Below are positions 10,837 to 55,045 of a stretch of DNA of 64,000 bases, in pieces. Origin of the DNA: Squalus acanthias. Taxonomy: Eukaryota. Numbering within the stretch: the stretch's first letter is position 1; every line of letters begins with the position of its first letter. Below the pieces are notes generated by a model. That model saw only the letters and a program-made list of their open reading frames with translations, had not been told where the DNA came from and searched no databases. The stretch covers positions 1,302,001 to 1,366,000 of the forward strand of contig CM059432.1 of NCBI GenBank assembly GCA_030390025.1. Reading direction: 5' to 3'. A program made the position numbers and the translations under genes.

Positions 10837-11669
10837 GTGTTCAGGAGCCTGAAAAGACTGAAGATGGTGCTAGCTGCCCAGTGCTTTCCCCAAGTAAAGA
10901 GGACACCTCAGCAGCTTCCCCCACAGAGGAGAAGACACCAGAGCCAGCTTGCCCTGCGGACGATAGTTCTTCAAAAACAGCAGAGGCTGCAGAGGCTGAT
11001 TCCGCAGAAGAGGAGAAGACAACAGAGGCAGGTGCTAGTTGCCCGATGGAAGAAAGTTCTTCAAAGACTGAAGAGTCTTCAAAGACTGAAGAGGCTGCAA
11101 AGTCTGATGCCACAGAAGAGGAGAAGGCAGCAGAGTCAGGTGCAGCTTGCCCTATGGAAGAAAGTTCTTCAAAATCAGAAGACACTGCAACGACTCCAAA
11201 ATCCAGCAAAACCGACGTGAAAGATAAAACCAGTGACCAGCAGTTGCCTTCCATTGTTGATAAGGGATTTAAAAAGGTAAATGGCAGAATTGATGAATTG
11301 GGAACCAAGATGGATGGTCTGTTAGACAGCATTAAATCTCTTGCTGATGTTATGACCAAGGAGCAAGGAGAGGATGAGAAGCGAGAAGCAAAGCCTGCTA
11401 AAGAAGAACCAAAAGCAGCGACACCAAAAGCAGCAACACCAAAAGCAGCAACACCAAAAGCAGCGACACCAGAAGCAAAGACACCAGAAGCAACGACACC
11501 TGAAGCAAAGACACCAGAAGCAAAGACACCAGGGGAAAAATCACCAGAAGCAAAAACACCAGGGGAAAAATCACCTGAAGCACCGACACCAGGAGCAACA
11601 ACACCAGAACCAAAATCACCAGAACCAGAACCACAAACGGAAGCAGAAGCAGAAACCAAAGCAGAATAA
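10837..11669 (+). CDS. Terminal coding exon of an acidic E/K/A/T/P-rich repeat protein (possible CABYR-like C-terminus)
   Basis: Acceptor TTTGTTTTCTAATGTAG, phase 1; ~277 open codons; no transposon motifs; stop at 11669; AATAAA at 11826. Confidence 0.8.
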
Positions 11670-11825
11670 ATGACAGAACCAGGACTTTTCTACCCTCTTC
11701 TGACCTGTGTGGAAAGACAGTGTAGGGTATGTCTTCTTAAGTAAAACACTCTAAGAAAAAGCTGAAGACAGTAGTTATGTTAGTGAACCCTGGTACTTTA
11801 AAAAAAAACTTGTAAGAATGTGTGC

Positions 11826-11870
11826 AATAAAGATCTTATTGCCAATTAGTTCTGCCTTCTGGTTCTTGTT
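11826..11870 (+). terminator. Polyadenylation signal with downstream U/GU-rich element
   Basis: AATAAA 11826-11831 followed by TTCTGCCTTCTGGTTCTTGTT. Confidence 0.65.
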
Positions 11871-12049
11871 CATTAATCTATTTGGAAATGTCCTAGTTAC
11901 TGCTTCCCACTAATTGCAAGGTAATACATTTAATCCCTGCTTAAATCCTTGCAAAGATTGTGCATATTTTGATGTTTCTTCCCCTGCTCCCGTTTGTAAA
12001 AATTGACTTGTTGGTCCTATTTTCCGAACTTATTAAGCCACATATTATG

Positions 12050-12215
12050 AGCATTTAAAGGGAAGCTAGATATGCACATGAGGGAGAAAGGAATAGAGGA
12101 TATGTTGATAGGGCGAGATGAAGTAGGGTGGGAGGAGGCTCGTGTGGAGCATAAACGCCGGCATGGACTGGATGGGCCGAGAGTGGCCTGTTTCTGTGCT
12201 GTAAATTCTATGTAA
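12050..12215 (+). mobile_element. CR1 3' tail fragment
   Basis: FKGKLDMHM end of ORF2; GGGCCGA..TGGCCTGTTTCTGTGCTG tail. Confidence 0.7.
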
Positions 12216-12579
12216 ACCAGGAAAGCAAATTGGCAACCTCATCCCACACCTATGCCTTTGCCACTCTTCAGCTGACTGTTAGAAAGTGAACAAGAGATGC
12301 TTATAAGGGCGGTATCAGTGGTCCTGTGCCAAAGGAGTAATTTGGCAAAGGAAGTGCAGAATTGGGAGAGCAGGACCTGGATTTTCCCTCCTATTAGTGG
12401 CAAAGTAGGAGTCCCACCAATGTGAATCCGCCACTAACCCACTGCAATTTCCTCTCAGGACCTTAGTTTGCTATGCAGGGCAAGTTTAGAGCGGAAATGC
12501 CACTCCCTAGATTTACTGCTACTGGAAGGGAGAGAAATACAGTCCTGGTGCATAAGGGCTGCAGCCAGTTAAATGAATC

Positions 12580-12932
12580 AACAACAGCCACTTGCATTTA
12601 TATGGTGCCTTTAACGTAGTAAAAAAATCCCAATTCGCTTCACAGGAGTGGTAACAAAATTTAACACCGAGCTGCATGAGATATGAGGAGAGGTGACTAA
12701 AAACTTACTCAGAGGGGTGATGGGTGAACGGGACTTGGTGCGAGTTAGGATACAGGCAGCAGAATTTTCGATGAGCTCAAGTTTACGGAGGTGGAAGGTG
12801 GGAGGCATTGGAAAAGTCTAGTCTAGAGGTAACAAAGGCGTGGATGAGGGTTTTGGCAGCAGATGAGCTGAAGCAGGGGGCGGAGACGGGCGATGTTACG
12901 GAGGTGGAAGTAGGCGGTCTTGGTGATGGAGT
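12580..12932 (-). mobile_element. L2 fragments
   Basis: LRKLELIENSAACILTRTKSRSPITP plus reverse L2 tail. Confidence 0.75.
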
Positions 12933-13024
12933 ATCACTTATCTGAAAAAATAGCTAAAGCACCACCGGTCTCGGGAATGTCAGTCACTGGAAGGGCACAT
13001 AGATTATCAGACGCATCCCCATAA

Positions 13025-14514: not shown

Positions 14515-15009
14515 AAAAGAGCAAGATTGTTTGGCACTGAAAGGGGGGTGGGGGGGGGTAAGCGCCATCAGAGGAATGGGGAGAGACGTGACAGAGTGAG
14601 TGCTGCAGGAGGATCAATACTTCACAAGAGTAGCTTGCCAATACCAATCAGACAGCCTTCAATCACCTCTTGTACCTCTCGTACTCTTTCACTCTCAGCA
14701 TTAGGGACTTCACTTCTCCAGAGGGAAACCTCTGCAAAAAAGCACCTTCCTTACTCAAAACCACTTTGCCAACTCACACAGACTGCCGCAAGGGCTGCAG
14801 CCAGTCTTCAAGGCCATTTCATTTAAAGGGACAATGTGCTCTACATCTCCTCATCATCACTGTAAAAGAAAAGCTGCCAGAACCTGGTCCATCTGCTACC
14901 CTGAGATGAGAGTCAACTCTTAAGACTACAAGGGGACCAATCCAGACCCCCATCTCTCAAACTGGTCTTACCGAGGAAGCACCTTGAAGCAGTAGATTAG
15001 CATTAGTAA

Positions 15010-15402
15010 GTTCATAGAATCATAGAATGATACAGCATAGGAGGCGGCCATTTGGCCCATCATGCCTGTGCTGGCTCTTTAAAAGAGCTATCCAATTAGT
15101 CCCATTCCCCTGCCCTTTCCTCATAGCTCTGCAAATTTCTCCCCTTAAAGTATTCGATTCCTTATTTCTCTTTATTTACTTCATCAAAACCCTTCATAAT
15201 TTTGATCACCGCTATTAAATCTCCCCTTAACCTTCTCTGCTCTAAGGAGAACAAGCCCAGCTTCTCCAGTCTCTCCACATAACTTAAGTTTCTCATCCCT
15301 GTTATTCGAGTAAATCGCCTCTGCACCCTCTTGAAGGTCTTGACATCCTTCCTAAAGCGTGGTGTCTACATGTGGACACAATACTCCAGCTGAGGCCTAA
15401 CC
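15010..15402 (-). mobile_element. CR1 3' fragment
   Basis: (CATAGAAT)n tail and reverse ORF2 end. Confidence 0.78.
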
Positions 15403-15482
15403 GCAAGAGAAAAAACGATTGTTTATTATATTAGTGGTGCCGTACTTGCCATCCTGATTTTGTTTCTGTTTGGTGACACTTA

Positions 15483-16470
15483 GGGGGCGATTTTCTCACT
15501 GGAGGCGGGTTTCGGTTTGGGTGGATTCGAAACCCGCCTCCACTGATAGGTTTGAAAAAATTGCGATTTTCCCCTGATTGGCCAGTTGATTTCAGAGGTG
15601 TGGGTTGCCCTTGGTCAATTAGTGTTTTGGGACTGAAACTCGCCTCTACTGACATCACTTTTCCAGCCTGATTTAAGGGCTGCTTTCTGCCTTGGATCAT
15701 TCCGCTGGATTTCTGCCAATGCTGCATCACCTGCAACATATTTTGAGAAACCACTATGTCCAATTCCAAGGCAAGGGCCTCCCCGAGGTTCTCGGATGAA
15801 GCGCTGCAAATGTTGGTTGAGGGGGTGAGAGCTAGCAGGGAGGTGCTCTTCCACTCATCTCGGAGGAAGAGGCCTCCCAAAGAAACCAAGGCTGTGTGGG
15901 TCCAACTGGCAAGGGATATAAACTCCAGATCTGTGTGCAGATTGGGTGAATGTTTATGTGTATTGATGAAATGCCATCCCTGTTGGAAACCATTAAAATG
16001 ATTTGATGGCAAAATGTTGGCGTCATGGCATCTGTTCTTTCGCCTTAGGCAGCTCCACATTGCGGGCTACGCGACACTTGCGTTGTCAGGTTGGTGGCCA
16101 GAGTGAAAGGAGGCCAGAGAGTCATGTTCATTGTCTATGATGTCTTAAGATGGAGCCAAGGACATGTGCCAACTTGGGCAACCTATGCAAATCTGGCCAG
16201 GATAAGTTCATCCCTTGCATCACGGGCAGCCATGTGCTCGCGTGCTGCCACTGCTGCTGGTCAATAGACCGACGCTCTGTCCTCCTCCTGCTCCTCCTTC
16301 ACCTCCCACTCCTCCTCCTCATCCTCATTCTCAACTGAGGAGGCCTGGAACTGAGCCACTTGCTCATCAGGAAGCTACAAGCCACGACGCTGTGCGATGT
16401 TGTGCAATGCACAGCAGACCACGACCATTCCGGAGACCCTGTATGGTGTATACTGCAGGGCTCCACATGA
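15483..16470. mobile_element. Internally deleted Harbinger transposon (Myb/SANT gene on +, transposase C-terminus on -)
   Basis: End GGGGGCGATTTT; 15756 ORF ASPRFSDEALQMLVEGV...WVQLARDINS; minus strand ~16465-16190 GALQYTP..VVCCALHNIA..acidic..ARDELILARF. Confidence 0.75.
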
Positions 16471-16879
16471 TCAGGAGTGGGTCAGCGAGCACAGCGGGGT
16501 GATGGTCGAATGGGACTTGGTGCGAGTTGGGATTCGGGGCAGCAGAGGCTGGGCCAGGAATGCATTGGACCTTGTTCATTTTAATTGGTTTCTGTTTCCC
16601 TTACTCGTGTAAAAATTATTTCAGATTTCTAGCATCCCCAGGATTTTGTTTATGCATTGGAACAGTCAAGTCTAGAGGTAACTATTTTTTGATTCATTCA
16701 TGGGATGTGGGCACCGCTGGAAAGGCCGGCATTTATTTCCCATCCAAGTCGCCTTCTTGAACCGCTGCAGTCCGTGTGACTTTGTTGTAGCGTTTTGGTG
16801 GGATTTGAACTCGCGTCTGCGGATTATTTAGTCCAGTCCTCTGGATTACTAGTCCAGTAACATAATACTGTGGCAACAA

Positions 16880-17477
16880 CAGCAGGACGGAGGATGGGTA
16901 TTCTGCGGCGAGTGTCTCACCTCCTGACTCCCTAAAGTCTTTCCACCATCTACAAGGCACAAGTCAGGAGTGTGATGGAATACTCTCCACTTGCCTGGAT
17001 GAGTGCAGCTCCAACAACACTCAAGAAGCTCGACACCATCCAGGACAAAACAGCCCGCTTGATTGGCAGCCCATCCACCACCTTAAACCTTCACTCCCTC
17101 CACCACCAGCGCACCGTGGCTGCAGTGGGTACCATCTACAAGATGAACTGCAGCAACTCGCCAAGGCTTCTTCGGCAGCACTTCCCAAACCCGCGACTTC
17201 TTCCACCTAGAAGGACAAGGGCAGCAGGCACATGGGAACACCTGCAAGTTCCCCTCCAAGTCACACACCAGCCTGGCTTGGAAATATATCAGCCATTCCT
17301 TCATTGTCGCTGGGTGAAAGTCCTGGAACTCGCTCCCTAACAGCACTGTGGGAGCACCTGCACCACACGGACTGCAGCGGTTCAAGAAGGCGGCTCACCA
17401 CCACCTTCTCGAGGGCAATTAGGGATGGGCAATAAATGCCGGCCTTGCCAGCGACGCCCACATCCCATGAACGAATG
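16880..17477 (+). mobile_element. LINE family B (CR1/L2-group lineage distinct from the main CR1) 3' end
   Basis: IYKAQVRSVMEYSPLAW...LDTIQDK; tail GGGCAATAAATGCCGGCCTTGCCAGCGACGCCCACATCCC. Confidence 0.8.
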
Positions 17478-17574
17478 CTACCGTATTCCCTCGGCATTGG
17501 AAGAGGTCAAGAGCAAGAGAGATTAGGTGGCAATTAAGGAGGATGCACCCCCCCCCCCCCCCCCTGTGTGGAAA

Positions 17575-18040
17575 GGGTGGGCGGGGCTTTGGGTTTGATT
17601 GACATCATCACGTGCCTGTCTGGGGCATGTGGATGACGTCAACAATCCCGGGACAAGAGGTGCGCGCGCAGCTCGCTGACCGTTTCAATTCAAAAGGCGG
17701 CGCGTGCGGGCGAGGGATCGGCCCGGGGAGGAAGGTCGCCGGCAAAGCCTACTCGAGCATCGAGGATCCATTTGGGGGCCTAGTCCCCGCCCCTCCTCAA
17801 TTTAAATGGTGAGGGGGGAGATGAGGCGTCGCAGACTGGGTGGGGATATGTAGATGGGTGTGTATACCGGCAGTAGTAGCCGCCGCCGCTGCTGCTGCAA
17901 TCTCCTTCAGTCCCGAGTTTTGGCGGGCCGGGGCGCCGGCGCCATCTGGAGAGTCGCCGCGCATGCGCGGTGGCGCCGGATTGGGCGGGAAGGGCCGCGT
18001 GCTGAGGGGGCGGTCACCCGGCGCGGCGGCTCAGCGACCC
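17575..18040. promoter_or_regulatory. CpG-rich promoter-like region
   Basis: GC boxes, E-box 17609, CRE TGACGTCA 17634, CHR-like TTCAAA 17689, YY1-like CGCCATCT 17940, NRF1 GCGCATGCGC 17959, ATTGG 17980; candidate donor TG|GTGAGG at 17809. Confidence 0.7.
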
Positions 18041-19945
18041 CCGGGTCCGCACACACACTGAGCCCCCCGGGTCCGCACACACACTGAGCCCCCCGGGTCC
18101 GCACACACACTGAGCCCCCCGGGTCCGCACACACACTGAGCCCCCCGGGCTCGGGCACCCTGGGCCCACACACACTGAGCCCCCCGGGTCCGCACACACC
18201 GGGCACCGAGTGCACCCCGGGCCCACACACACTGAGCACCCCGGGCTCGGGCACCCTGGGCCCACACACACTGAGCCCCCCGGGTCCGCACACACCCCGC
18301 GAGCCCCCCGGGTCCACACCTACCCCGCGAGCCCCCCGGGCCCGCACACACACCGGGCACCGAGTGCACCCTGGGCCCACACACACACTGAGCCCCCCGG
18401 GTCCGCACACACCCCGCGAGCCCCCCGGGCCCGCACACACACCGGGCACCGAGTGCACCCTGGGCCCACACACACACTGAGCCCCCCGGGTCCGCACACA
18501 CCCCGCGAGCCCCCCGGGTCCACACCTACCCCGCGAGCCCCCCGGGCCCGCACACACACCGGGCACCGAGTGCACCCTGGGCCCACACACACACTGAGCC
18601 CCCCGGGTCCGCACACACCCCGCGAGCCCCCCGGGCCCGCACACACACCGGGCACCGAGTGCACCCTGGGCCCACACACACACTGAGCCCCCCGGGTCCG
18701 CACACACCCCGCGAGCCCCCCGGGTCCACACCTACCCCGCGAGCCCCCCGGGCCCGCACACACACCGGGCACCGAGTGCACCCTGGGCCCACACACACAC
18801 TGAGCCCCCCGGGTCCGCACACACCCCGCGAGCCCCCCGGGTCCACACCTACCCCGCGAGCCCCCCGGGCCCGCACACACACCGGGCACCGAGTGCACCC
18901 TGGGCCCACACACACACTGAGCCCCCCGGGTCCGCACACACCCCGCGAGCCCCCCGGGTCCACACCTACCCCGCGAGCCCCCCGGGCCCGCACACACACC
19001 GGGCACCGAGTGCACCCTGGGCCCACACACACACTGAGCCCCCCGGGTCCGCACACACCCCGCGAGCCCCCCGGGTCCACACCTACCCCGCGAGCCCCCC
19101 GGGCCCGCACACACACCGGGCACCGAGTGCACCCTGGGCCCACACACACACTGAGCCCCCCGGGTCCGCACACACCCCGCGAGCCCCCCGGGTCCACACC
19201 TACCCCGCGAGCCCCCCGGGCCCGCACACACACCGGGCACCGAGTGCACCCTGGGCCCACACACACACTGAGCCCCCCGGGTCCGCACACACCCCGCGAG
19301 CCCCCCGGGTCCACACCTACCCCGCGAGCCCCCCGGGCCCGCACACACACCGGGCACCGAGTGCACCCTGGGCCCACACACACACTGAGCCCCCCGGGTC
19401 CGCACACACCCCGCGAGCCCCCCGGGTCCGCACACACCGGGCACCGAGTGCACCCCGGGCCCACACACACACTGAGCCCCCCGGGCCCACACACACCGGG
19501 CACCGAGTGCACCCCGGGCCCACACACACCGGGCACCGAGTGCACCCCGGGCCCAGACACACTGAGCACCCCGGGTCCGCACACACCCTGCGAGCCCCCC
19601 GGGCCCGCACACACCCCGCGAGCACACCGGGCACCGAGTGCACCCTGGGCCCACACACACACTGAGCACCCCGGGCCCGCACACACCGGGCACCGAGTGC
19701 ACCCTGGGCCCACACACACTGAGCACCCCGGGCCCGCACACACCGGGCACCGAGTGCACCCCGGGCCCACACACACTGAGCACCCCGGGCTCGGGCACCC
19801 TGGGCCCACACACACTGAGCCCCCCGGGCTCGCGCACACCGGGCACCCTGGGCCCACACACACTGAGCACCCCGGGCCCGCACACACCGGGCACCGAGTG
19901 CACCCTGGGCCCACACACACGGAGCACCCCGGGCTCGCGCACACC
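18039..19945. repeat. GC-rich minisatellite with higher-order units (26-bp monomers; 206- and 117-bp periods)
   Basis: CCCCCCGGGTCCGCACACACACTGAG variants; TCCACACCTACCCC marker recurs at 206, 206, then 117 bp x5. Confidence 0.95.
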
Positions 19946-19960
19946 ACTCACCCAGAGCAC

Positions 19961-21692: not shown

Positions 21693-21714
21693 TGGGATTG
21701 TTCTGCTTTCTCAT

Positions 21715-28136: not shown

Positions 28137-31088
28137 TCATGTCCAAATTCCTGCCCGCTCCCCGTAACCCTTAATGCCCTTTACTTCTAGGAAACTGTCT
28201 ATTTCTGTTTTAAATTTATTTAATGATGTAGCTTCTACAGCTTTTTGTGGCAGCATATTCCATGGACCTACCACCCTCTGAGTGAAGTAGTTCCTCCTCA
28301 TCTCAGTTTTGAAAGAGCAGCCCCTTATTCTAAGACTATGTCCCCTAGTTCTAGTCTCACCCGTCATCGGGAACATCCTCCCCGCATCCACCCGATCCAA
28401 CCCCTTCACAATCTTATATGTTTCAATAAGATCGCCTCTCATTCTTCTGAACTCCAATGAGTAGAGTCCCAATCTACCCAACCTCTCCTCATATGACCAC
28501 TCCCTCATCCCCGGGATTAACCGAGTGAACCTTTTTTGCACTGCCTCGAGAGCAAGGATGTCTTTCCTTAAGTAAGGACACCAAAACTGTATGCAGTATT
28601 CCAGGTGCGGTCTCACCAATACCTTGTACAACTGAAGCAATACCTCCCTATTTTTATATTCTATCCCCCTAGCAATGAAAGCCAACATTCCATTTGCCTT
28701 CTTAATCACTTGCTGCACCTGCATACTAACCTTTTGAGTTTCGTGCACCAGGACCCCCAGATCCCTTTGCACTTCAGTACTCTCCAGTTTCTTGCCATTA
28801 AGATAATAAATTGCTCTAGGATTTTTCCTGCCAAAGTGCATCACCTCACACTTTCCAGTGTTGTATTCCATCTGCCAAATCTCTGCCCACTTACTTAGCC
28901 TGTCTATGTCCCCTTGCAGGTTTTTTATGTCCTCCTCACTCACTACTTTCCCTCCCATCTTTGTATCATCTGCAAATTTTGATATGTTACACTTGGTCCC
29001 TTCCTCCAAATCGTTAATATAGATTGTAAAGAGTTGGGGACCCAGCACTGACCCCTGTGGAACACCACTAGTTACTGATTGCCAGTCTGAGAATGAACCA
29101 TTTATCCCAACTCTTTGCTTTCTGTTAGATAGCCAATCCTCTATCCATGCCAGAATATTACCCCCAATCCCGTGATTTTTTACCTTAAGCAATAATCTTT
29201 TGTGTGGCACCTTGTCAAATGCCTTTTGGAAGTCTAAATACACTACGTCCACTGGTTCCCCTTTATCCACTCTATATGTTACTTCCTCAAAGAACTCCAG
29301 CAAATTTGTCAAACATGACTTCCCCTTCGTAAAACCATGCTGACTTTGTCCTATTAAATTATGATTATCCAAATGTCCTGTTACTGTTTCCTTAATAATG
29401 GACTCCAAAATTTTACCTACCACAGATGTTAGGCTAACCGGTCTATAGTTACCAGCCTTCTGTCTACTGCCCTTTTTAAATAAGGGTGTTACATTAGCAG
29501 TTTTCCAGTCTGCCGGGACCTTAGCGGAATCCAGGGAGTTTTGAAAAATTATTACCAATGCATCTACAATCCCTACCGCCACTTCCTTCAAGACTCTAGG
29601 ATGTAAGCCATCAGGTCCAGGTGATTTATCCGCCTTGAGTCCCATTATTTTACCGAGTACCACTTCCTTAGTGATTTTGATTGTGTTTAGCTCCTCTCCC
29701 CCTATAGCCCCCTGTTTGTCCAGTGTTGGGATATTCTTAGTGTCCTCTACTGTAAAGACTGATACAAAATATTCATTCAGTGTTTTTGCCATCTCCATAT
29801 TTCCCACCATTAATTTCCCGGTCTCATCCTCTAAGGGACCAACATTTACTTTAGCCACCCTTTTTCTTTTTATATAACTATAAAAACTCTTACTATCTGT
29901 TTTTATATTTTTTGCTAATTTACTTTCATAATCTATCTTCCCTTTCTTAATCAATCTTTTTGTTATTTTTTGCTGCCTTTTAAATTTTTCCCAATCCTCT
30001 GTCCTCCCACTAGATTTCGCTACCTTATATGCCCTTGTTTTTAGTCGAATACTATCCTTAATTTCTTTACTTAGCCACGGATGACTGTCCTTTCTTTTAC
30101 ACCCTTTTCTTTTCAGTGGAATATATTTTTTTTGGAAGTTGTAAAATAACTCCTTGAATGTACACCACTGATCATGTGTCGTCTTACCCTTTAATCTATT
30201 TTCCCAATCCACTCTACTCAATTCCGCTCGCATACCTTCATAGTCTCCTTTATTCAAGCTTAGCACACTTGTTTGAGATCCAACCTTCTCACCCTCTAAT
30301 TGAATATGGAATTCAACCATGTTATGGTCACTCATTCCAAGGGGATCCTTTACTAGGACATTTTTAATTAATCCTGTCTCGTTACACAGGACCAGATCTA
30401 AGGTTGCTTGCCCCCTGGTCGGTTCAGTTACATACTGCTCAAGAAACCCATCCCTAATACACTCAATGAACTCATCCTCAAGGCAGCCCTGCCCCATTTG
30501 ATTTGTCCAATTAATATGATAGTTAAAATCCCCCATAATTATAGATGTTCCCTTATTACATGCCTCAACTATTTCCTGATTGATACTCCGTCCAACAGAG
30601 TTGCAACTGTTCGGAGGCCTATAGACTACGCCCACTAGTGTTTTTTTCCCCTTATTATTCCTTATCTCCACCCAAACTGTTTCATTATCATGATTTTTTG
30701 ACCCAATATCATTACTCTGTATTACAGTGATTCCTTCCTTTATTAACATAGCCACCCCACCTCCCCTTCCTTCCTGCCTGTCCTTCCTGATCGTTAAATA
30801 ACCTGGTATGTTTAATTCCCAGGCATTGTCACCCTGCAGCCATGTTTCTGTAATGGCCACAATATCATAACCATATGTAGTTATTTGTGCCATTAACTCG
30901 TCTATTTTGTTACGAATGCTACGTGCATTCAGATAGAGAACTTTCAAATATGCTTTGTGGCACTTAGTTCCTGCTTTTTCACTTTTTACCACTTTACCTT
31001 TTACTCCACACACTCTGTCCCTTCCTGCCACGCTCTGATTTGTGATTCCCCTACTGCTACCTATGTCTATGACCCTCTCTGTTGTCAT
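28137..31088 (-). CDS. CR1 ORF2: APE endonuclease plus reverse transcriptase, 983 aa
   Basis: LNARSI, ITETW, GDFN, SDH; YLDFQKAFD, GVPQGS, FADD; no stops. Confidence 0.96.
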   Translation of the reverse strand: MTTERVIDIGSSRGITNQSVAGRDRVCGVKGKVVKSEKAGTKCHKAYLKVLYLNARSIRNKIDELMAQITTYGYDIVAITETWLQGDNAWELNIPGYLTIRKDRQEGRGGGVAMLIKEGITVIQSNDIGSKNHDNETVWVEIRNNKGKKTLVGVVYRPPNSCNSVGRSINQEIVEACNKGTSIIMGDFNYHINWTNQMGQGCLEDEFIECIRDGFLEQYVTEPTRGQATLDLVLCNETGLIKNVLVKDPLGMSDHNMVEFHIQLEGEKVGSQTSVLSLNKGDYEGMRAELSRVDWENRLKGKTTHDQWCTFKELFYNFQKKYIPLKRKGCKRKDSHPWLSKEIKDSIRLKTRAYKVAKSSGRTEDWEKFKRQQKITKRLIKKGKIDYESKLAKNIKTDSKSFYSYIKRKRVAKVNVGPLEDETGKLMVGNMEMAKTLNEYFVSVFTVEDTKNIPTLDKQGAIGGEELNTIKITKEVVLGKIMGLKADKSPGPDGLHPRVLKEVAVGIVDALVIIFQNSLDSAKVPADWKTANVTPLFKKGSRQKAGNYRPVSLTSVVGKILESIIKETVTGHLDNHNLIGQSQHGFTKGKSCLTNLLEFFEEVTYRVDKGEPVDVVYLDFQKAFDKVPHKRLLLKVKNHGIGGNILAWIEDWLSNRKQRVGINGSFSDWQSVTSGVPQGSVLGPQLFTIYINDLEEGTKCNISKFADDTKMGGKVVSEEDIKNLQGDIDRLSKWAEIWQMEYNTGKCEVMHFGRKNPRAIYYLNGKKLESTEVQRDLGVLVHETQKVSMQVQQVIKKANGMLAFIARGIEYKNREVLLQLYKVLVRPHLEYCIQFWCPYLRKDILALEAVQKRFTRLIPGMREWSYEERLGRLGLYSLEFRRMRGDLIETYKIVKGLDRVDAGRMFPMTGETRTRGHSLRIRGCSFKTEMRRNYFTQRVVGPWNMLPQKAVEATSLNKFKTEIDSFLEVKGIKGYGERAGIWT

Positions 31089-31126
31089 TTTTATTTTTTG
31101 CTCTCTTGAAACCTCCCCCCCACTAA

Positions 31127-32083
31127 TTAGTTTAAAGCCCTCTCCACAGCCCTAGTTATTCGATTCGCCAGGACACTAGTCCCAGCACTGGCCAAGTGAA
31201 GTCCGTCCCAACGGAACAGCTCTCTCCTGCCCCAGTACTGGTGCCAGTGTCCCAAGAAGCAAAACCCATTTTTCCCACACCAGTCTTTGAGCCACGCATT
31301 CAACTCCCTGATTTTATTTACCCTAGCCAAATTTGCTCGTGGCTCAGGTAGTAATCCAGAGATTATTACCCTCGAGGTTCTGCTTTTTAATTTGGCCCCT
31401 AGCTGCTCAAACTCCCTCAGCAGAACCTCTTTCCTTGTCCTATCTATGTCATTGGTACCAACATGGACCACGACAACTGGATCCGCCCCCTCCCACTCCA
31501 AGTTTCTCTCCAGCCCAGAGGAGATGTCCTTAACCCTGGCACCGGGCAGGCAACACAGCCTTCGGGACTCTCGCTCTTGGCTGCAAAGAACCCTATCTAT
31601 CCCCCTAATGATACTATCCCCTACCACTACAACATTTCTTTTTACTCCCCCCACTTGAATGGCCCCCCTTACCACGGTGCTGTGGCCAGGTTGCTCATCC
31701 TCCCTGCAGTCCCCGCTCCTATCCACACAGGGAGTAAGAGCCTCGAACCTGTTGGACAAGAGCAAGGGCTGCGGCTCCTCCAACACTACCTCCTGGATCC
31801 CTGTACTTGCCTCACTCGTAGTCACACCTTCCTGTCCCTGACCACGGGCTACTTCTGAATTAGTTACTCTAATTGGTGTGACTACCTCCTGAAACACGGA
31901 GTCCAGGTAACTCTCCCCCTCCCTGATGTGTCGCAGTGTTTGAAGCTCGGACTCCAGCTCATCAACACGGAGCCGGAGTTCCTCGAGCAGCCAACACTTA
32001 CTGCAAATGTGTTCACCGTGAACATCAATGGTGTCCACCAGCTCCCACATATTGCAGCAGTAACACATCACCTGCTCTCCCAT
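31127..32083 (-). CDS. CR1 ORF1: Cys-rich N-terminus, coiled coil, SGNH esterase, 318 aa
   Basis: CYCC..CSKC, heptad leucines, GDS, GTND, DGLH motifs. Confidence 0.92.
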   Translation of the reverse strand: MGEQVMCYCCNMWELVDTIDVHGEHICSKCWLLEELRLRVDELESELQTLRHIREGESYLDSVFQEVVTPIRVTNSEVARGQGQEGVTTSEASTGIQEVVLEEPQPLLLSNRFEALTPCVDRSGDCREDEQPGHSTVVRGAIQVGGVKRNVVVVGDSIIRGIDRVLCSQERESRRLCCLPGARVKDISSGLERNLEWEGADPVVVVHVGTNDIDRTRKEVLLREFEQLGAKLKSRTSRVIISGLLPEPRANLARVNKIRELNAWLKDWCGKNGFCFLGHWHQYWGRRELFRWDGLHLASAGTSVLANRITRAVERALN

Positions 32084-32298
32084 TCTATGTAATTAATTAA
32101 AAATTTATTATTTACCCTTCAGTTAATTTATGCCAGCAGTCTCCGCTACACCACAGATACCCGAGAAACTATAAACTATGGAATTGAAGTTTTGTATAAA
32201 AAAAAGAGAAATACTCACCAACCAATCACTTACCTGCTTTCTGGTGACGTCACACTTCGATTATTTTTTACCTCTCTCCTGCTCTCGGCTTGGTGAAA

Positions 32299-32601
32299 GC
32301 CTACCTGGTCGCTGCCGCCTTTTACCGCCGCCGCCTCGCCGCTGTTGCTCCACCCAGGTCCGCCGCCTCTATGGGCCTACCTGGTCGCTGCCGCCTTTTA
32401 CCGCCGCCGCCTCGCCGCTGTTGCTCCACCTAGGTCCGCCGCCTCTGTGGGCCTACCTGGTCGCTGCCGCCTTTTACCGCCGCCGCCTCGCCGCTGTTGC
32501 TCCACCCAGGTCCGCCGCCTCTGTGGGCCTACCTGGTCGCTGCCGCCTTTTACCGCCGCCGCCTCGCCGCTGTTGCTCCACCCAGGTCCGCCGCCTCTGT
32601 G
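32299..32601. repeat. 76-bp x4 tandem repeat at CR1 5' end
   Basis: Units start at 32300, 32376, 32452, 32528. Confidence 0.93.
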
Positions 32602-44120: not shown

Positions 44121-45824
44121 AAAGTATTTATTTAATTTCTCTGCCATTTCCTCATTCCCCATTATAAATTCTCCCGTCTCTGACTGTAAAGGACCTACAT
44201 TTACCTTCGCCAGTCTTTTCCTTTTCACATACCTACAGAAGATTTTACAATCCGTTTTTATATTTTTCGCTAGTTTGTGCTGATATTCCATTTTCCCTTT
44301 CTTTATCAATTTCTTGGTCCCCCTTTGCTGATTTCTAAAAAGATCCCAATCCTCAGGCTGACTGCTTTTTCTGGCAACTTTATAAGCTTCCTCCTTTGAC
44401 TTAATACTAGCTTTAATTTCTTTTGTTAGCCATGGTTGGATCACTTTTCCTTTTGGGTTTTTATGCCCTAGAGGAATATATGTTTGTTGCAAATTATGCA
44501 TTATTTCCTTGAATGTTAGCCATTGTATGTCCACCTTCATACCTTTTAGTGTAGTCTCCCAATCTACCATGGCCAACTTGTCCCTCATACCCTTGTAGTT
44601 TCCTCTGTTTAGATTGAAGACCTTAGTTTCAGATTGGACTACATCACTCTCAAACTTAATGTAAAATTCAATCATATTATGGTCACTTGTCCCTAAAGGC
44701 CCCTTTACCACAAGATTATTGATTAGCCCTTTCTCATTACACAGTGCCAGATCCAGAATAGCCTGTTCCCTGGTTGGTTCCTCCACATACTGATCCAGGA
44801 AACCATCTCGCATGCATTCCAAGAATTCGTCTTCCACACCATTAGTGGTAATTTGATTTGCCCAGTTAATATGTAGATTAAAGTCCCCCATGATTACCGT
44901 ATTGCCCTTGTTACATGCACTTCTAAGCTCTTGATTGATACTGTGCCCTACATTACCATTACTGTTTGGTGGCCTATACACAACTCCCACCAATGTTTTC
45001 TGCCCTTTGCTGTTTCTTAGCTCCACCCAAACTGATTCCAGTTCTACATCACGATCTGCCAAGCCAGGCAACATACCATCCTGGAGTCACGTCTGCGGCC
45101 ACAGAAACATCTGTCTGTTCCACTTACGATAGAAACCCCTATCACTATTGCTCTCCCACTCTTTTTCCTCCCCTCCTGTGTAGCTGAGCCACTCGTAGTG
45201 CTGTGGACTTGGCTCTTGCTGCATTCCCCTGAGAAACCATCTCCCCCAGCAGTATCCAAACGGAAAAACTGTTGGAGAGGGAGATGGACCCAGGGGACTC
45301 CTGCACTACCTTCCTAGTTCTTTTACTCTGTCTGGTGGTCACCCATTCCCTGTCTGCCTGTGCACTGTTTAGCTGCGGTGTGACCACCTCGTTAAACGTG
45401 CTATCCACGAAGATCTCAGCCTCGTGGATGCTCCACAGTGACTCCAGCCGCAGCTGCAGGTCGCAAACGCAGATTTCGAGTAGCTGCAGCTGGAGACACT
45501 TCATGCACACTTGTTCACCCTGGACACCGAAAGTGTCCCTGACTTCCCACATAGCACAGGAGGAGCACTCCACGCTGCCGAGCTGCCCTGCCATGACCTA
45601 CCCTTAATTTACTCCCTTTACTTCCTTTAAATTAAAGAATATTAAATACACTAGGGACCTTACTTCACTTTAAACACTACTTACTCTAAATTAGAGACCT
45701 TTTACTTTAACCACTGGACTGTAGAAATACTCACCAGCTCCTACTTACCAATCAGCTCCTTCCCTTGTGCCGACGTCACTTTTAATCTCTGACGTCACTT
45801 TCGAATGTTGCCTGTTGAGGTCCA

Positions 45825-46500
45825 CTCTCGCTGCTGCTCCCAATAGCTCGGTCTGGGCCTCGAGCCTCAGGCTTTATTTCCTCGCTCCTCCTTCGCCTGT
45901 TCCCTCACAGGTCGGTCCGCTCTCGCTGCTGCTCCCAATAGCTCGGTCTGGGCCTCGAGCCTCAGGCTTTATTTCCTCGCTCCTCCTTCGCCTGTTCCCT
46001 CACAGGTCGGTCCGCTCTCGCTGCTGCTCCCAATAGCTCGGTCTGGGCCTCGAGCCTCAGGCTTTATTTCCTCGCTCCTCCTTCGCCTGTTCCCTCACAG
46101 GTCGGTCCGCTCTCGCTGCTGCTCCCAATAGCTCGGTCTGGGCCTCGAGCCTCAGGCTTTATTTCCTCGCTCCTCCTTTGCCTGTTCCCTCACAGGTCGG
46201 TCCGCTCTCGCTGCTGCTCCCAATAGCTCGGTCTGGGCCTCGAGCCTCAGGCTTTATTTCCTCGCTCCTCCTTGGCCTGTTCCCTCACAGGTCGGTCCGC
46301 TCTCGCTGCTGCTCCCAATAGCTCGGTCTGGGCCTCGAGCCTCAGGCTTTATTTCCTCGCTCCTCCTTGGCCTGTTCCCTCACAGGTCGGTCCGCTCTCG
46401 CTGCTGCTCCCAATAGCTCAGTCTGGGCCTCGAGCCTCGGGCTTTATTTCCTCGCTCCTCCTTGGCCTGTTCCCTCACAGGCTGGTCCGCTCTTGCTGCT
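45825..46500. repeat. 95-bp x7 tandem repeat at CR1 5' end
   Basis: Units at 45825, 45920, 46015 ... 46395. Confidence 0.93.
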
Positions 46501-47747
46501 GCTTCTTTGAGCTGTTTAAACGCAGTCACCACTTGACCATTCTGTGGAGTCAGAAGGAATGCAGCACGAAGCGTGGAACATGAAGGGCACTTCAGTCACT
46601 CGTGCAATGAGGCCTGGAAGTTGCGGAAGCATAGAAAATTGGAAAATATGGCAGGCAAAGCCCCCTGCAGCAGAAGGCAAGCTCGAGGCTCCTGAGAGGA
46701 GAGGCCCATTTGGGGGAAAAGCTGCAAGATTTATAAAGTGGGATAGGTAAGTTTAGTGTGGAGTTTTTTCCCCCCCCCTTCTGAGTTGTTTAATTTTTAA
46801 GCTATACATTTTATTTGTAAGTGGAGCTGGAAGGAAGTAAGATGGCTGCTCATTTTTTTTCAGGGATTTGATTGCTTTTGTGATTGTTGACTAATTGCTT
46901 TTAAGTAAATTGACTTTCTTTTTGCTGATTCTGGTTCCGGATGAGGTTTCAGCCAAACAGCAAGTTTCGAGCACTTTCCCACACCCTGCAGATGCATGTA
47001 AAATATTTACGTATGTATGTACATTGATAGATTTGGCCATTAAAATTTTAATGAAACTGAACACTCAGGCAAAATGATTGGTGTAGAGCTCTCAATGGGT
47101 TCCAAATTGTCAACGTTTGGCCCAGCAGTTTTAATTTTACTCCATTTTTTTGATATCATTATTAAATAAGGAATCCGTATAAATGTACTGGTGACTGAAT
47201 CAGGCGCAGCCTGTTGCAGAACCAATGTTAATGTTAATTACAAAATAACAGACGTGTCCCAACTGTTTTGAGTTTTCAGCAATTCAGCATTATTTGCTTC
47301 ATGGTTGACTAAGTCCAAAACTGAGCTACTTTTGTCAATTCTACAAGAAACACTAAAGATTACTCATTGCAGTTTTTTTTTCTCTTGATGTTAACTCAGC
47401 AAGTATTTTTAAAGACAAGGAAACAAAATAGCGAGAACCGAAAGCAGCATTCATAATGGCTTTGAAAAGGGAAGTGTCAGAAGTACATTTAAAGCAATTT
47501 AAAGTTGGGACCCTTTTACGATTTTGAATGCCCCAGTGCTCGACTTGCCACGTGCTGAACTTGCCCAGCAACTTGTGGTGCTGACTGTCAGGAAGCATCC
47601 CTCAGCACCATGCAGTACTTGCAGATTTGTCATTTCAGGCTATTGGTTAACTTCACGGTGATTTTTGGTTTATAAAAAGTTCTGAAACTGCTGCAAAGAA
47701 TATTTAGCTGGTATAGCACTCTTGTTGGCTGTCTTTATAAATGGTCT

Positions 47748-48431
47748 GGGCTGGATTTTGTCTTGGGGTCGGGTTGGGGTCGTGTCATCCGCATTTCATG
47801 TTGCCCCCCCTGACTCCAGATTAATGTGGATGAATGATGCAATTTTCACTTAATTGGGCAATTGAGTTCCAGCATGTGGGAACCCATGAACCAGTTAGTG
47901 GTTTGAGTCTGAAAGTCGCCTCTGATGATGTCATCATTGCAGGTCAGAGACTGCCTGCCTGGTCTCAGAGACTGCCTGGCCTTTGCTGTGAGTGGACCTG
48001 TAAATGAAGAGAGAGAGAGAGGCAGGCAGTCAGTCAGTCAGTCTCTGAAGACATTCAATGCAGCAGCATCATCAGAGGCGACTTTAAGACCTAATACTAC
48101 TACTACCTTCATCACATCTCCGTTGTAATAGTGGACCTGCAGCTGATAGTCAGCTATCCACTTGTGCTCCCGCCAGGTTTCACTGGCGTGTTTCACATCA
48201 GGCGTACTTCACGTCCGAAAAGGGTTAAACTAGCTAAGACGTTTCAAAATGGCATTACAGAGCCAATTTAGGGCTTGTTAAGGGCTTTAATGGCCTCTCC
48301 CGCCTCTTGGAGGCGGGATGGAGTCGGGAACCCCACGACTGATTTTGTCAAAATTGCGTGGAGGCGGGATGGGGTCGGGACCCCCCACACGCCTCCAAAC
48401 CCGACTCCACGGGTCATTGAAAATCCAGCCC
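47748..48431. mobile_element. Harbinger-type MITE, uninterrupted
   Basis: TIR GGGCTGGATTTT/AAAATCCAGCCC; flanks TCT/TTT; body alignable to 42278-44120. Confidence 0.85.
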
Positions 48432-48559
48432 TTTGCCTCCGCTTATGAGTGGTCTGGTAAGGTTACCTTCGGGCTGGACTGGGGTCGAGGGGGAGCAGCA
48501 AGGAAGACAGTAGAGAGCAGGAGCAGCTGCGACAAGAGGGAAGAGAAAGTTGGCTCCGT

Positions 48560-49135
48560 GCAGGAGTCATATCCACAGTGGGTATTCAAGGACCACTTCG
48601 ACCTCAACTTCACTGAGGAACAATGTATGAGGTGCCTTTTGCTTCACAAAGGAGACTTTCACCGAGCTATGTATCCTGTTGCAGCCACAACTATAGCCTC
48701 GCACCTGGTCATGGACAGCACTGCCTGAGGCTGTTATGGTTACTGTGGCCCTTAGCTTTATGCCACAGGCTTTTTCCATGCTGCAGCAGGTGATATCAGC
48801 GACATCCCAGTTCGCAGTCCACCGCTGTATTGGGGAGGTCACCGAGGTTCTTTACACCAGGAGGAACACCTACATCTCCTTCCACTAGGACTAAGCGAAG
48901 CAAGACGAGAGAGCACAAGGCTGACAGGCTTCCCCAGAGTGCAAGGTGCCATAGACTGCACCCACATTGCTTTGCATGCTCCCCATCACCAGCCTGGCAG
49001 CTTTATCAATCGTAAGGGATTCAGATCCCTCGGCATCTAGCTGGTTTGTGACCACAGACAGCGCATCATGCAGGTCTGTGCCCGGTATCCTGGCAGCAGT
49101 CATGCGCCAGTCCTCTGTGCCACCTTTATTCCATT
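48560..49135 (+). pseudogene. Decayed Harbinger (HARBI1-like) DDE transposase
   Basis: GFPRVQGAIDCTHIAL, FINRKGFRSL, VCARYPGSSH. Confidence 0.85.
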
Positions 49136-49984: not shown

Positions 49985-50085
49985 CTTACCTTGACAACTC
50001 TGGTGAGATCGTTGAACTTTTTCCGTCATTTCTGCCATGCCCTTGGAGCAATGACATCCTCGGTGACCTCTTCCCACTAGTGACA
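49985..50085 (-). pseudogene. Harbinger Myb/SANT gene exon remnant
   Basis: RAWQK*RKKFNDLTRVVK followed by GTAAG donor. Confidence 0.6.
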
Positions 50086-50289
50086 GAGTTGTTGCTCGGA
50101 AATGGCGAGTTTTTGCCCAGAAGAGCAGCCAGAGATTTCCCGCTGTGGACAGGGACTGTTTTATTTTTTTTTCCTTTATTTGTGAAGTACTTTGGGATGC
50201 TTTTACATTAATGATGTGAAATCAATGTAAGCTGTTGCTGCTCTGTTTCTGTATTATTCACATTTGCTTGGAATTTCTGCAGGGGTTCT

Positions 50290-53275: not shown

Positions 53276-53475
53276 AATGAAACAGCATAAATGGCTAAAA
53301 CGTCCTGATATGCTGTTTCTCTAGGGCTTCTGTCAACGTTACGCCGAGAGATTGAGAGAATGCTATGGAAATTCACCCAGCACAAGTTCAATTTATGGGA
53401 GCTATATTGTCTTGAGAATGTGCTATATCCTGAGTTATTGCTGTACTTTTTATTCAGCATTAGAGGAAAAGCAAC

Positions 53476-54296
53476 AATAGGAACAGGAGGAGGCCATTCA
53501 AGCCCGTTCCGCCATTGAATTAGCTCACAGCTGATCTGTACCTCAGCTCCATTTACCCGCCTTTTGTTCCATATCCTTGATACCCTTATCTAACAAAAAT
53601 CTATTCGCCTCAGTCTTGAAGATTTCAATTGCCTCATCATCTACAGGGAATGAAAGTTTTTGGGGAAGAGAGTTCCAAATTTTCACTACCCTTTGTGTAA
53701 AAATAAAAGTGTTTCCTGATTTAACTCCTAAATGGCCCAGCTCTAATTTTAAGATTATGCCTCCTTATTCTGAATTTCCCCACCAGAGGAAATAGTTTTG
53801 CTGTGGCTCAGTTGGTAGCACACTCGCCTCTGAGTCAGAAAGTTGTGGGTTCAAGTCCCACTCCAGGGATTTGAGCACATAAAACTAGGCTGACACTCCA
53901 GTGCAGTGCTGAGGGACACTATTTCAAAGAAGAGATGGGGAGTTATCCCCAGTGTCCTGGCCAATATTTATCCCTCAACCAACACAAAAAACCAAACAGA
54001 TGATCTGGTCATTATCACAATGCTGTTTGTGGGAGCTTGCTGTGCGCAAATTGGCTGCCGCATTTCCCACATTACAACAGTGACTACACTTCAAAAGTAC
54101 TTCATTGGCTGTATAGCACTTTGAGACGTCCGGTGGTCGTGAAAGGCGCTATATAAATGCAAGTCTTTTTCTTTTATCTACCCTATCGAATTCCGTTATC
54201 ATTTTAAATGTCTCGATTAGATTACCCATCAACGTAAACTCAAGGGAGTACAACCCAAGTTTATGTAACCTGTCCTCATAATTTAACCCTTTAAGC
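53476..54296 (-). mobile_element. Old CR1 3' fragment split by a SINE
   Basis: GGAAATAGTTT|...|ATCTACCCTATCGAAT is collinear. Confidence 0.7.
53800..54172 (+). mobile_element. Deu-domain tRNA-derived SINE (SacSINE1/AmnSINE-like)
   Basis: A box TGGCTCAGTTGG, B box GGTTCAAGTCC, Deu core, tail AAAGGCGCTATATAAATGCAAG. Confidence 0.85.
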
Positions 54297-54712
54297 CTTC
54301 CTGACTTAAATAGCTTAACGTTCTTTCAGCATTCCTGAGCTAAAATCGCCGAGTTACCTACCTAACGCCGTTGTTTAAGCACCACCATAACATGGACAGC
54401 AACAGTTCAAGCAGAACACTTAGCGCCTTTTCAGGACAGCTCGGGATGGGCTAAAAATGCAGCCTTGTCAGCATCTCCCAAATCCCAAAAATATTTTTTC
54501 TAAATACATAATATACAGGAAAAGAGTATTGTGTACTTGGGGACTATGTTAGTAACAAAAACTGATATTCAAAAAAGGGGATTAATATGTGTAAAAATGT
54601 AACCAGCTGGGGCTAATGGAGGATAAACTTTTAGAAACGCGATTGTTTTTACTTTGCAAGTACATAATGTTGTTTTCCCTTAATTCAGAAGTACAGAACA
54701 GATCCCACCAAG

Positions 54713-54854
54713 ATGGCTTGCAGTAAATCTATGATTCCCTACGGCTTCAAGACTCTTGTCGAAACACTAGGCAAAACCGTTCTGTTTGAACAGCCTGCGG
54801 ATATACACCAGTTTGCCTCAATCTATTTCAAGGAATTACTGGCGTTTAGAGCTG
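54713..54854 (+). CDS. cabyr: CABYR-like RIIa dimerisation/docking domain, first coding exon
   Basis: MACSKSMIPYGFKTLVETLGKTVLFEQPADIHQFASIYFKELLAFRA resembles the CABYR N-terminus; acceptor TTTTCCCTTAATTCAG at 54689; Kozak AAGATGG; phase-1 donor GTTTGT. Confidence 0.82.
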
Positions 54855-54991
54855 GTTTGTATTCAGTTCCTTGTTTATTTCTTTGTAATAAGATCAGTAT
54901 TTCAAAATTATTCTTTTGTGTCCAAATAATTGAATTTACCTTTACTTATACTTTCATGATTCCTAATAATGTGTTTCCCTCTGTCTTGCAG

Positions 54992-55045
54992 TTAATCCAA
55001 ATCTTGATATAAAAGAACTGGTGAATTTATTCTATATAAACAAAG
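54992..55045 (+). CDS. cabyr: CABYR-like second coding exon (54 nt)
   Basis: Acceptor TTTCCCTCTGTCTTGCAG, donor AAAG|GTAAG; in-frame VNPNLDIKELVNLFYINK resembles CABYR DIKDLVKQF. Confidence 0.82.

What the first reader, a model, noticed from the sequence alone, without database searches (positions are those of the whole stretch)
10837..55045. Possible tandem array of CABYR-like genes
Seen: a phase-1 terminal exon with an acidic tail at 10837 and, 43 kb downstream on the same strand, CABYR-like D/D exons ending in a phase-1 donor at 55045. Known: CABYR joins an RIIa D/D domain to a large acidic low-complexity region. Inference: the 10837 exon ends an upstream paralog, implying a lineage-specific duplication of a sperm-flagellar AKAP-binding protein.
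Basis: partly seen in the sequence, partly recalled or inferred. Interest (0 to 1): 0.7.

Follow-up and report, generated by a model that had tools for sequence, protein, structure and literature searches.

The report
Ancient shark pair of CABYR-like genes
This shark DNA holds the last exon of one gene and the first exons of a second, both related to the mammalian sperm-tail protein CABYR; they form an old pair that skates also have, not a long array, and both carry a shared coiled-coil-like helix not seen in the bony-vertebrate relatives examined.

Summary
The window is shark DNA. It holds one RIIa docking/dimerisation (D/D) exon pair (gene B, 54713-55045) and, 43 kb upstream, a phase-1 terminal exon (10837). 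That exon's orthologues in Heptranchias and Amblyraja are joined directly to a D/D domain, so it ends a second CABYR-like gene (A), which RefSeq names neurofilament-like or proteoglycan-like. It is a pair, not an array: the window has one D/D pair and one helix, and searches gave only two elasmobranch types. The duplication is old. A and B D/D domains are 44-56% identical, a skate has both on a contig of one length, and trees reject a shark-only origin. New here: both paralogues carry a heptad-repeat helix near the C-terminus, bridged by Callorhinchus CABYR and missing from 34 other D/D proteins. Likely function (inferred): AKAP-docking structural proteins of the sperm tail. Not shown: the splice from A's D/D exons in this species, tissue, synteny, binding. 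One contig joins a 3'UTR donor back to the 10837 acceptor, suggesting a circular RNA.

The parts
10837..11669 (+). Coding part of the terminal exon of CABYR-like gene A (phase 1, 276 whole codons, stop)
   Evidence: Frame and splice site. Aligns with P0006 from Gly111 to its end (E 3e-56); P0006 and P0007 carry RIIa just ahead of it. Contigs of X1 and X5 start at 10836 where the X10 contig runs on (weak hint).
10839..11213 (+). Acidic Ser/Glu/Ala-rich region with four Cys-Pro motifs and a 108-nt internal duplication; predicted disordered
   Evidence: Net -21 in 125 residues; CP at residues 13, 38, 68, 104; repeat 10968-11173; the matching part of P0006 (113-195) has pLDDT under 50.
11214..11369 (+). 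Conserved heptad-repeat helix (coiled-coil-like) shared with gene B orthologues and Callorhinchus CABYR; no Pfam family
   Evidence: Ten hydrophobic columns in 4-3 spacing across 9 rows; helix 196-246 in the P0006 model; P0012 scores 27.4 and 46.0 bits on A-only and B-only profiles, reached by 0 of 1000 plain and 0 of 1000 heptad-preserving shuffles each; Pfam none.
11421..11624 (+). 15-nt tandem repeat coding 5-residue Thr/Ser-Pro repeats, the likely source of the 'neurofilament-like' name
   Evidence: 13.6 copies; 18 S/T-P sites and no Tyr in the exon; like repeats in P0006, P0007, P0014.
11670..11848 (+). 3'UTR of gene A with AATAAA at 11826-11831 and a likely cleavage site near 11848
   Evidence: AATAAA. 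One X1 contig of 1036 letters lies on 10836-11848 with no difference; its last 23 letters do not lie on the window and were not shown.
11724..11732 (+). Splice donor inside the 3'UTR (11726|11727), joined back to the 10837 acceptor in one contig: putative 890-nt single-exon circle
   Evidence: X5 record 24 is 11617-11725 followed directly by 10836-11005, no differences, depth 2.7. The site matches 7 of 9 donor-consensus positions, second best of 37 GT sites in the exon. No such joint is listed for X1 or X2.
54689..54854 (+). First coding exon of CABYR-like gene B (predicted acceptor 54688|54689, ATG 54713, phase-1 donor); core of the RIIa D/D domain
   Evidence: Pfam RIIa 33 bits; 85-91% identity to P0001-P0003. 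The acceptor is read from the sequence only.
54992..55045 (+). Second coding exon of gene B (54 nt, phase 1 to phase 1): the extension behind the D/D core that CABYR-like proteins share
   Evidence: 95% identity to P0001 residues 67-85; profile hit 17.9 bits. The rest of gene B has no hit in the window and should lie beyond 64000.

Best explanation
The window spans the gap between two head-to-tail CABYR-like paralogues that arose by one old tandem duplication, before sharks and skates split and probably before chimaeras branched off. Gene A's D/D exons lie upstream of the window and its terminal exon is the one at 10837. Gene B starts at 54713 and ends beyond 64000. Both are built as D/D domain, variable middle, then a terminal part with a heptad helix. 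Shown by sequence: the architecture, the two types, their age and the shared helix. Inferred from mammalian CABYR and SPA17 (about 55% likely): each protein dimerises through its D/D domain and docks on an AKAP helix in the accessory structures of the sperm tail; the heptad helix is a second self-association site, possibly between A and B; the acidic regions are disordered spacers that may bind Ca2+. The copies differ in regulatory surface. Short A forms have many Ser/Thr-Pro sites, Cys-Pro motifs and almost no Tyr; B has a long Tyr-containing middle and few Ser/Thr-Pro sites.
For: P0006 and P0007, RefSeq models of a shark and a skate, join RIIa directly to the orthologue of the 10837 exon at the same point. 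D/D identity between A and B rows is 44-56%; the window's B domain is 75-92% identical to elasmobranch B rows. Amblyraja has A (XP_032875412.1) and B (XP_032875407.1), each on a contig of 121,814,736 nt, accessions five apart (adjacency inferred). Tree of 35 rows: B with Callorhinchus P0012 100/99, A+B 96/93; shark-only and elasmobranch-only duplications rejected. Helix homology through P0012; best score among 34 other D/D rows 1.3 bits. P0006 scores 56.6-70.0 bits with five proteins of the named-CABYR group (four named) against at most 33.2 with SPA17. P0009 shows an A-type D/D joined to a different next exon. S/T-P 19-25 and Tyr 2 in P0006/P0007; S/T-P 4 and Tyr 13-19 in P0004/P0155. Mouse CABYR binds AKAP3/4 through its RII domain and forms disulfide-linked oligomers (PMC3398308); elasmobranch sperm have two accessory longitudinal columns (PMC11856307).
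Against: The junction from A's D/D exons to 10837 was not seen in this species: those exons are outside the window and the loose-end table was cut. The Hemiscyllium model P0014 has the same tail with no RIIa. Direct A-B helix similarity is weak: window against P0002/P0004 was reached by 45-87 of 2000 shuffles, against P0001 and P0003 by 1380-1989; hhalign probability 2% and 27% on the cut helix; the region was chosen after a first look. With four long-branch rows kept, A+B support was 89/75. In the helix P0012 follows A at 6 and B at 8 columns, which also fits a pre-duplication gene. No Callorhinchus A was among the ten proteins named. B's first exon alone does not separate CABYR (31.6-40.8 bits) from SPA17 (32.9). 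Trees rest on 67 columns. No tissue, binding or calcium data.
Confidence: 0.85

Rival explanations
1. The pair is older than the split of bony and cartilaginous fishes; bony vertebrates kept the A-like copy and lost B and the helix.
For: Holding A with the non-shark rows is not rejected (p-AU 0.316). A is closer to the six non-shark rows compared (55-69%) than B is (38-57%). The only outgroup at hand gave an implausible root.
Against: The best trees place A and B together at 96/93. The shared helix is absent from 34 of 34 other D/D rows, which needs an extra loss.
Confidence: 0.2
2. The duplication is confined to sharks and rays; Callorhinchus has a single pre-duplication CABYR.
For: P0012's helix lies between A and B (6 against 8 diagnostic columns), the start of its tail aligns with A's, and no holocephalan A was among the proteins named.
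Against: The D/D tree puts P0012 with B at 100/99 and rejects A+B without it (p-AU 0.009; the group was named after a first tree had been seen).
Confidence: 0.12
3. There is a true array of three or more copies, or a recent extra copy of A's terminal exon; the X5 joint is then a linear splice between two copies.
For: One X5 contig joins 11726 to 10837 with no differences. Nothing outside the window could be searched.
Against: One D/D pair and one helix in 64 kb; no DNA similarity between the two gene neighbourhoods (best hit 13 nt); all elasmobranch D/D rows fall into two groups; single X1 and X2 contigs pass 11726 unbroken.
Confidence: 0.07
4. The 10837 exon ends an unrelated gene (neurofilament-like or proteoglycan-like, as RefSeq names it) and the D/D-bearing models are prediction fusions.
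For: RefSeq names of P0006, P0007 and P0014; P0014 lacks RIIa; the junction was not seen in this species.
Against: Models of two species share the junction; Pfam finds only RIIa and no filament rod; the helix matches a protein named CABYR at 27.4 bits.
Confidence: 0.05
5. The structure is as described, but the proteins work outside sperm, as D/D adaptors in motile cilia or somatic cells, as SPA17 and ROPN1L do.
For: D/D proteins build motile cilia broadly (PMC8339350 passages). The tetrapod C-terminal region is missing and short A has almost no Tyr.
Against: CABYR is abundant in salamander testis and sperm (PMC8904931 passages) and is a fibrous-sheath protein in mouse; shark sperm have the matching columns.
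Confidence: 0.2

Closest known systems
CABYR of tetrapods and ray-finned fishes (named rows: Ctenodactylus P0054, Discoglossus P0023, Mixophyes P0020, Acipenser P0160, Lepisosteus P0045/P0161)
   Same: N-terminal RIIa D/D domain with the same loop and YF pattern and the same extension; long acidic low-complexity body (net -35 in P0054; -18 to -26 in P0006, P0007, P0004, P0155); several isoforms of different length (mouse CR-A/CR-B variants, PMC3398308).
   Different: Two tandem paralogues. A C-terminal heptad helix that none of 34 other D/D rows has. No hit to the region behind the D/D of P0054, P0072, P0020 or P0043. A ends in Ser/Thr-Pro repeats and its short forms have 2 Tyr.
Callorhinchus milii CABYR isoform X3 (XP_042202669.1, P0012)
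   Same: B-type D/D (68% to the window's gene B; 100/99), the same helix, and a short form with D/D joined straight to the tail, like short A.
   Different: 185 aa, no Ser/Thr-Pro repeats; helix intermediate between A and B.
SPA17/Sp17 (PDB 7MY4, 8J07, 9FQR)
   Same: Nearest solved D/D structure. SPA17-ROPN1L heterodimers bind AKAP18 at 82 nM against 9.6 uM for SPA17 alone (PMC8339350), a model for A-B pairing.
   Different: No IQ motif; lower scores than CABYR for A. A named mammalian CABYR also has SPA17 as its best PDB match at 30-35 bits, so this hit does not assign the family.
Neurofilament medium/heavy tail (RefSeq name of P0006)
   Same: Acidic tail with Ser/Thr-Pro repeats; the likeness to KSP repeats is recalled, not tested.
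   Different: No intermediate-filament family in Pfam; RIIa instead.

Membership tests
CABYR | N-terminal RIIa docking/dimerisation domain | tested here: met
   Gene B exon 33 bits; A orthologues 36.9 and 29.6 bits, cut-off 22.4. A's own D/D exons are outside the window.
CABYR / R2D2 group | Gly at start of helix I, hydrophobic residue in place of the second loop Pro, YF motif in helix II (PMC8339350 section 5) | tested here: met
   The same pattern in the window's B, P0006, P0007, P0012 and two named CABYRs, 6 of 6 rows examined.
CABYR | D/D region closer to named CABYR than to SPA17 | tested here: met
   P0006: 56.6-70.0 bits against at most 33.2. B groups with Callorhinchus CABYR at 100/99. 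B's first exon alone is inconclusive, and no named SPA17 row was in the trees.
CABYR | Large acidic low-complexity region behind the D/D | tested here: met
   Net -27 in the window's A exon; -24 and -26 in B orthologues; low pLDDT.
CABYR (tetrapod form) | Second coding region CR-B (PMC3398308) | tested here: not met
   The parts of P0072 and P0020 behind the D/D hit no A or B row among 164 proteins at E 0.05. That this region is CR-B is my inference; P0072 is unnamed.
CABYR | Tyrosine phosphorylation and calcium binding | not testable with these tools
   No assay. The A exon has no Tyr and short A forms have 2; B orthologues have 13-19.
CABYR | Binding to AKAP3/AKAP4; place in the fibrous sheath; testis expression | not testable with these tools
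   The runs carry no tissue label and are only guessed to be RNA.
CABYR | Synteny with TTC39C and OSBPL1A (human order recalled) | not testable with these tools
   No genome held; a paper search gave three listings that were not read.
SPA17 | C-terminal IQ calmodulin-binding motif | tested here: not met
   No IQ pattern in 6 of 6 A/B proteins; Pfam finds no IQ family in the 7 scanned.
Neurofilament | Intermediate-filament rod domain | tested here: not met
   Pfam: none for the exon, RIIa only for P0006 and P0007.
Tandem gene array (three or more copies) | A third D/D exon pair or tail at the locus | tested here: inconclusive
   None in the window (1 pair and 1 helix among 2990 segments); flanks not available.

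The most novel reading that the evidence does not exclude
Cartilaginous fishes have kept, since before sharks and chimaeras split, two CABYR paralogues that pair through both the D/D domain and a family-specific coiled coil. The heterodimer would be a building block of the helical longitudinal columns of shark and ray sperm, with A supplying a Ser/Thr-Pro, disulfide-linked spacer of switchable length and B a Tyr-rich arm. It would be the ancestral form of the fibrous-sheath scaffold, whose helix bony vertebrates replaced. A's output may be tuned by back-splicing of its terminal exon.
Probability: 0.15. Interest if true: 0.65.

Novelty: new variant of a known kind. Interest (0 to 1): 0.4.

Why it matters
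A review places the first structures tied to axonemal doublets 3 and 8 in cartilaginous fishes (PMC11276731 passage), and the D/D survey lists CABYR as one gene of 'higher animals' (PMC8339350 section 5). An old, conserved pair with its own helix names candidate proteins for the columns of shark sperm and gives a simple test of D/D heterodimerisation between paralogues. It also corrects gene models named neurofilament-like, proteoglycan 4-like or uncharacterised. It remains a duplication of a known reproductive gene family, which is a common event, and no function is shown.

Tried and rejected
Whole-genome search: no genome held. Whole tail as query: 0 of 8000 candidates; the helix alone worked. 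ESM Atlas: no usable feature hit for the tail or for P0006 45-240; the nearest structural clusters were CABYR and Sp17 at TM 0.33 and 0.27, under the bar. Sequencing runs: no RNA holder listed on record. X1, X2 and X5 have no cover at 10434-10788, which is not counted as evidence; the repeat beyond 12050 crowded out the loose-end and joint tables, so the exon upstream of 10837 was not seen. Depth arithmetic suggests further X1 contigs (depth about 11.5) that share only 10836-10865, that is more than one upstream partner; this rests on rounded figures. Search for N-terminal extensions of orthologues as an upstream exon of B: no convincing match. Scrambled single gene: rejected, as A and B have different D/D types and tails. 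Recent duplication: rejected. Foldseek of the P0006 model against the PDB: nothing at E 0.001; both models are low-confidence (mean pLDDT 52.4 and 32.3). Rooting on the unnamed two-domain protein P0130 gave an implausible root. Complex prediction of the A and B helices was not available, so pairing is untested. Rfam: nothing at gathering score. Earlier findings near the window, by sequence and in relatives: none.
Full report
Setting. The window is cartilaginous-fish DNA. About 61% of it matches other parts of itself; one element has a 1004-aa frame with endonuclease and reverse transcriptase domains and a 321-aa frame with a GDSL esterase domain ('CR1-type' is my recalled label). The best protein relatives are from sharks and rays. 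No genome was held, so evidence from outside the 64 kb comes from proteins of other species and from contigs of four public runs.

Observation. The upstream exon has an acceptor at 10836|10837, phase 1, 276 codons, a stop ending at 11669 and AATAAA at 11826. It has three parts: an acidic region (net -21 in 125 residues) with four Cys-Pro motifs, a 52-residue middle, and near-neutral Thr/Ser-Pro repeats. The downstream gene (B) has ATG 54713, exons ending at 54854 and 55045, both phase 1, and Pfam RIIa at 33 bits. Its relatives P0001-P0003 are 85-91% identical (3 of 8 candidates). Their long body has no significant hit in the window, so B continues beyond 64000.

What the 10837 exon belongs to. 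The whole exon found nothing (0 of 8000 candidates). Its middle part found one protein among 56 candidates: P0006, Heptranchias perlo XP_067833839.1, named 'neurofilament medium polypeptide-like isoform X4', 74% identical and carrying RIIa. P0006 aligns with the exon from Gly111, at the acceptor, to its end. An exhaustive search with P0006 (628 hits at E 0.001, best 150 listed) gave P0007, Amblyraja radiata XP_032875412.1, with the same build, and P0014 from Hemiscyllium with the tail but no RIIa in its model. So the exon ends a D/D gene, here called A. A's D/D exons are not in the window: P0006 hits only B's exons, at 55-59% for the first, and a profile of 49 D/D rows finds one exon pair among 2990 six-frame segments. 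That is where A's front part should lie; I could not test the link. P0009, an unnamed A-type D/D joined to a different exon, shows that A has another middle.

Transcript hints. The runs are only guessed to be RNA and carry no tissue label. I laid 4 of the 12 listed. Contigs of X1 and X5, from two studies, start at 10836, where a contig of X10 runs on into the intron; this is a weak hint, as the loose-end table was cut. The X1 contig ends at 11848, 17 nt behind AATAAA, with 23 letters left over. One X5 contig (depth 2.7, no differences) reads 11617-11725 and then 10836-11005. As 11726 and 10836 are both G, this joins a donor at 11726|11727 (7 of 9 consensus positions, second of 37 GT sites) to the exon's own acceptor. 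The simplest reading is an 890-nt circular RNA; an exon copy outside the window is the alternative. It is one contig in one of three RNA-like runs, and single X1 and X2 contigs pass the site unbroken.

Pair, not array; old, not recent. D/D identity between A and B rows is 44-56%, and 75-92% between the window's B and other elasmobranch B rows. The two neighbourhoods share no DNA similarity. Amblyraja has both genes on a contig of the same length, with accessions five apart; adjacency is inferred from this. A tree of 38 rows (six fragments, duplicates or short matches dropped) gave A 97/90, B 97/99 and A+B 89/75. A second tree of 35 rows (18 dropped, among them four long branches and near-copies) gave A+B 96/93 and B with Callorhinchus CABYR P0012 100/99; it rejected a shark-only (p-AU 7.5e-05) and an elasmobranch-only (0.009) duplication (groups named after the first tree). 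It could not be rooted well, and B branching before A plus the bony-vertebrate rows is not rejected (0.316). Most non-shark rows are unnamed; five clusters were named (two frogs, sturgeon, gar, a rodent). Firm: older than the shark-skate split. Likely: stem of cartilaginous fishes.

A shared helix. The middle of A's exon resembles the end of B's orthologues. Directly the match is weak: P0006 against P0002 and P0004 was reached by 0 of 2000 shuffles, the window's exon by 45-87 of 2000, and P0001 and P0003 gave nothing. P0012 bridges them. It scores 27.4 bits on a profile of A only and 46.0 on one of B only, reached by 0 of 1000 plain and 0 of 1000 heptad-preserving shuffles each. Ten hydrophobic columns fall in 4-3 spacing, and low-confidence AlphaFold models put a long helix there in both (196-246; 457-504). 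A joint profile scores at least 80 bits on 12 of 15 A/B rows (7 of them were in the profile) and at most 1.3 bits on 34 other D/D rows. Conversely, the regions behind the D/D of four bony-vertebrate-type proteins hit no A or B row. The shared helix suggests that the whole gene was duplicated, terminal exon included. P0012's helix is intermediate (6 A-like, 8 B-like columns), which leaves room for a single pre-duplication gene in chimaeras.

How it probably works. Shown: architecture and kinship. Inferred: D/D dimerisation and AKAP docking, since the R2D2 hallmarks of PMC8339350 are present and mouse CABYR needs this domain to bind AKAP3 and AKAP4 (PMC3398308). A site in the sperm tail is plausible, as elasmobranch flagella have two accessory columns (PMC11856307) and CABYR is abundant in salamander testis (PMC8904931). 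The helix would be a second association site. A's cysteines could form the disulfide links seen in mouse CABYR oligomers. Short A forms have 19-25 S/T-P sites and 2 Tyr; B orthologues have 4 and 13-19, which suggests divided regulation.

Family. Both genes work like CABYR and fall in its sequence group. They lack the tetrapod C-terminal region, so they are best called CABYR co-orthologues of a chondrichthyan type. They are not SPA17 (no IQ motif) or neurofilaments. SPA17 is the top PDB hit, but it is also the top hit for a named mammalian CABYR.

Literature. Searches: CABYR+shark 6 papers; CABYR+duplication+cartilaginous fish 0; CABYR+chondrichthyan 0; CABYR+Callorhinchus 1; CABYR+elasmobranch 2; CABYR+zebrafish+ortholog+synteny 1. 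In what I read, none describes the pair; the library lacks most subscription papers. Seen: PMC8339350 passages and section 5, with a supplement of which only 2,827 characters were held as text, so its alignments and Figure 2 may bear on shark CABYR; PMC11276731 passages and sections 8, 14, 16; PMC3398308 passages and section 27; passages of PMC5568229, PMC8904931 and PMC11856307. All other papers were seen as listings only.

Verdict. A real, old tandem pair of CABYR-like genes with an undescribed shared helix, one of them misnamed in the databases. Confidence 0.85 for the pair, about 0.55 for the sperm-tail mechanism. New variant of a known kind; interest 0.4.

Noticed in passing
window 17477-18037: CpG island (GC 0.64, CpG o/e 0.90) between the two paralogues, with NRF1-like and YY1-like motifs at 17959 and 17940 (motif names recalled). 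It looks like a promoter. It may belong to gene B or to a minus-strand gene running antisense over gene A. A short minus-strand frame there has no Pfam hit.
   Followed up: partly
window 18038-19942: About 2 kb of very GC-rich nested minisatellite directly beside the CpG island.
   Followed up: no
window 11726 joined to 10837 (run X5, record 24): Donor in gene A's 3'UTR, 57 nt behind the stop, used in a back-joint to the exon's own acceptor. A linear splice from it would lie just beyond the recalled 50-55-nt limit for nonsense-mediated decay.
   Followed up: partly
window 28137-32092, minus strand: LINE with two long open frames (1004 aa endonuclease plus reverse transcriptase; 321 aa GDSL esterase), possibly young. 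A near-identical partial copy lies at 6273-7388 on the plus strand.
   Followed up: partly
window 32299-32601 and 45819-46503: Near-perfect tandem repeats (76 nt x4.0, 95 nt x7.2, 98% matches) just 5' of minus-strand LINE frames; perhaps the elements' own repeated promoters.
   Followed up: no
window 15400-16480 and 48430-49130: Stretches that look by eye like decayed Harbinger-type DNA transposons (recalled resemblance, not tested).
   Followed up: no
P0001 (Pristiophorus): The model matches only the start of the conserved helix (15.4 bits) and then diverges: a frameshift or a different splice.
   Followed up: no
P0014 (Hemiscyllium XP_060680521.1): Gene A tail named 'retinitis pigmentosa 1-like 1 protein', with no RIIa in the model; probably an incomplete model.
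   Followed up: partly
P0062 (unnamed, 1792 aa): A CABYR-like D/D stretch deep inside a long protein (near residue 1150) with a second matched stretch; may be fused or tandem CABYR-like genes in another lineage.
   Followed up: no
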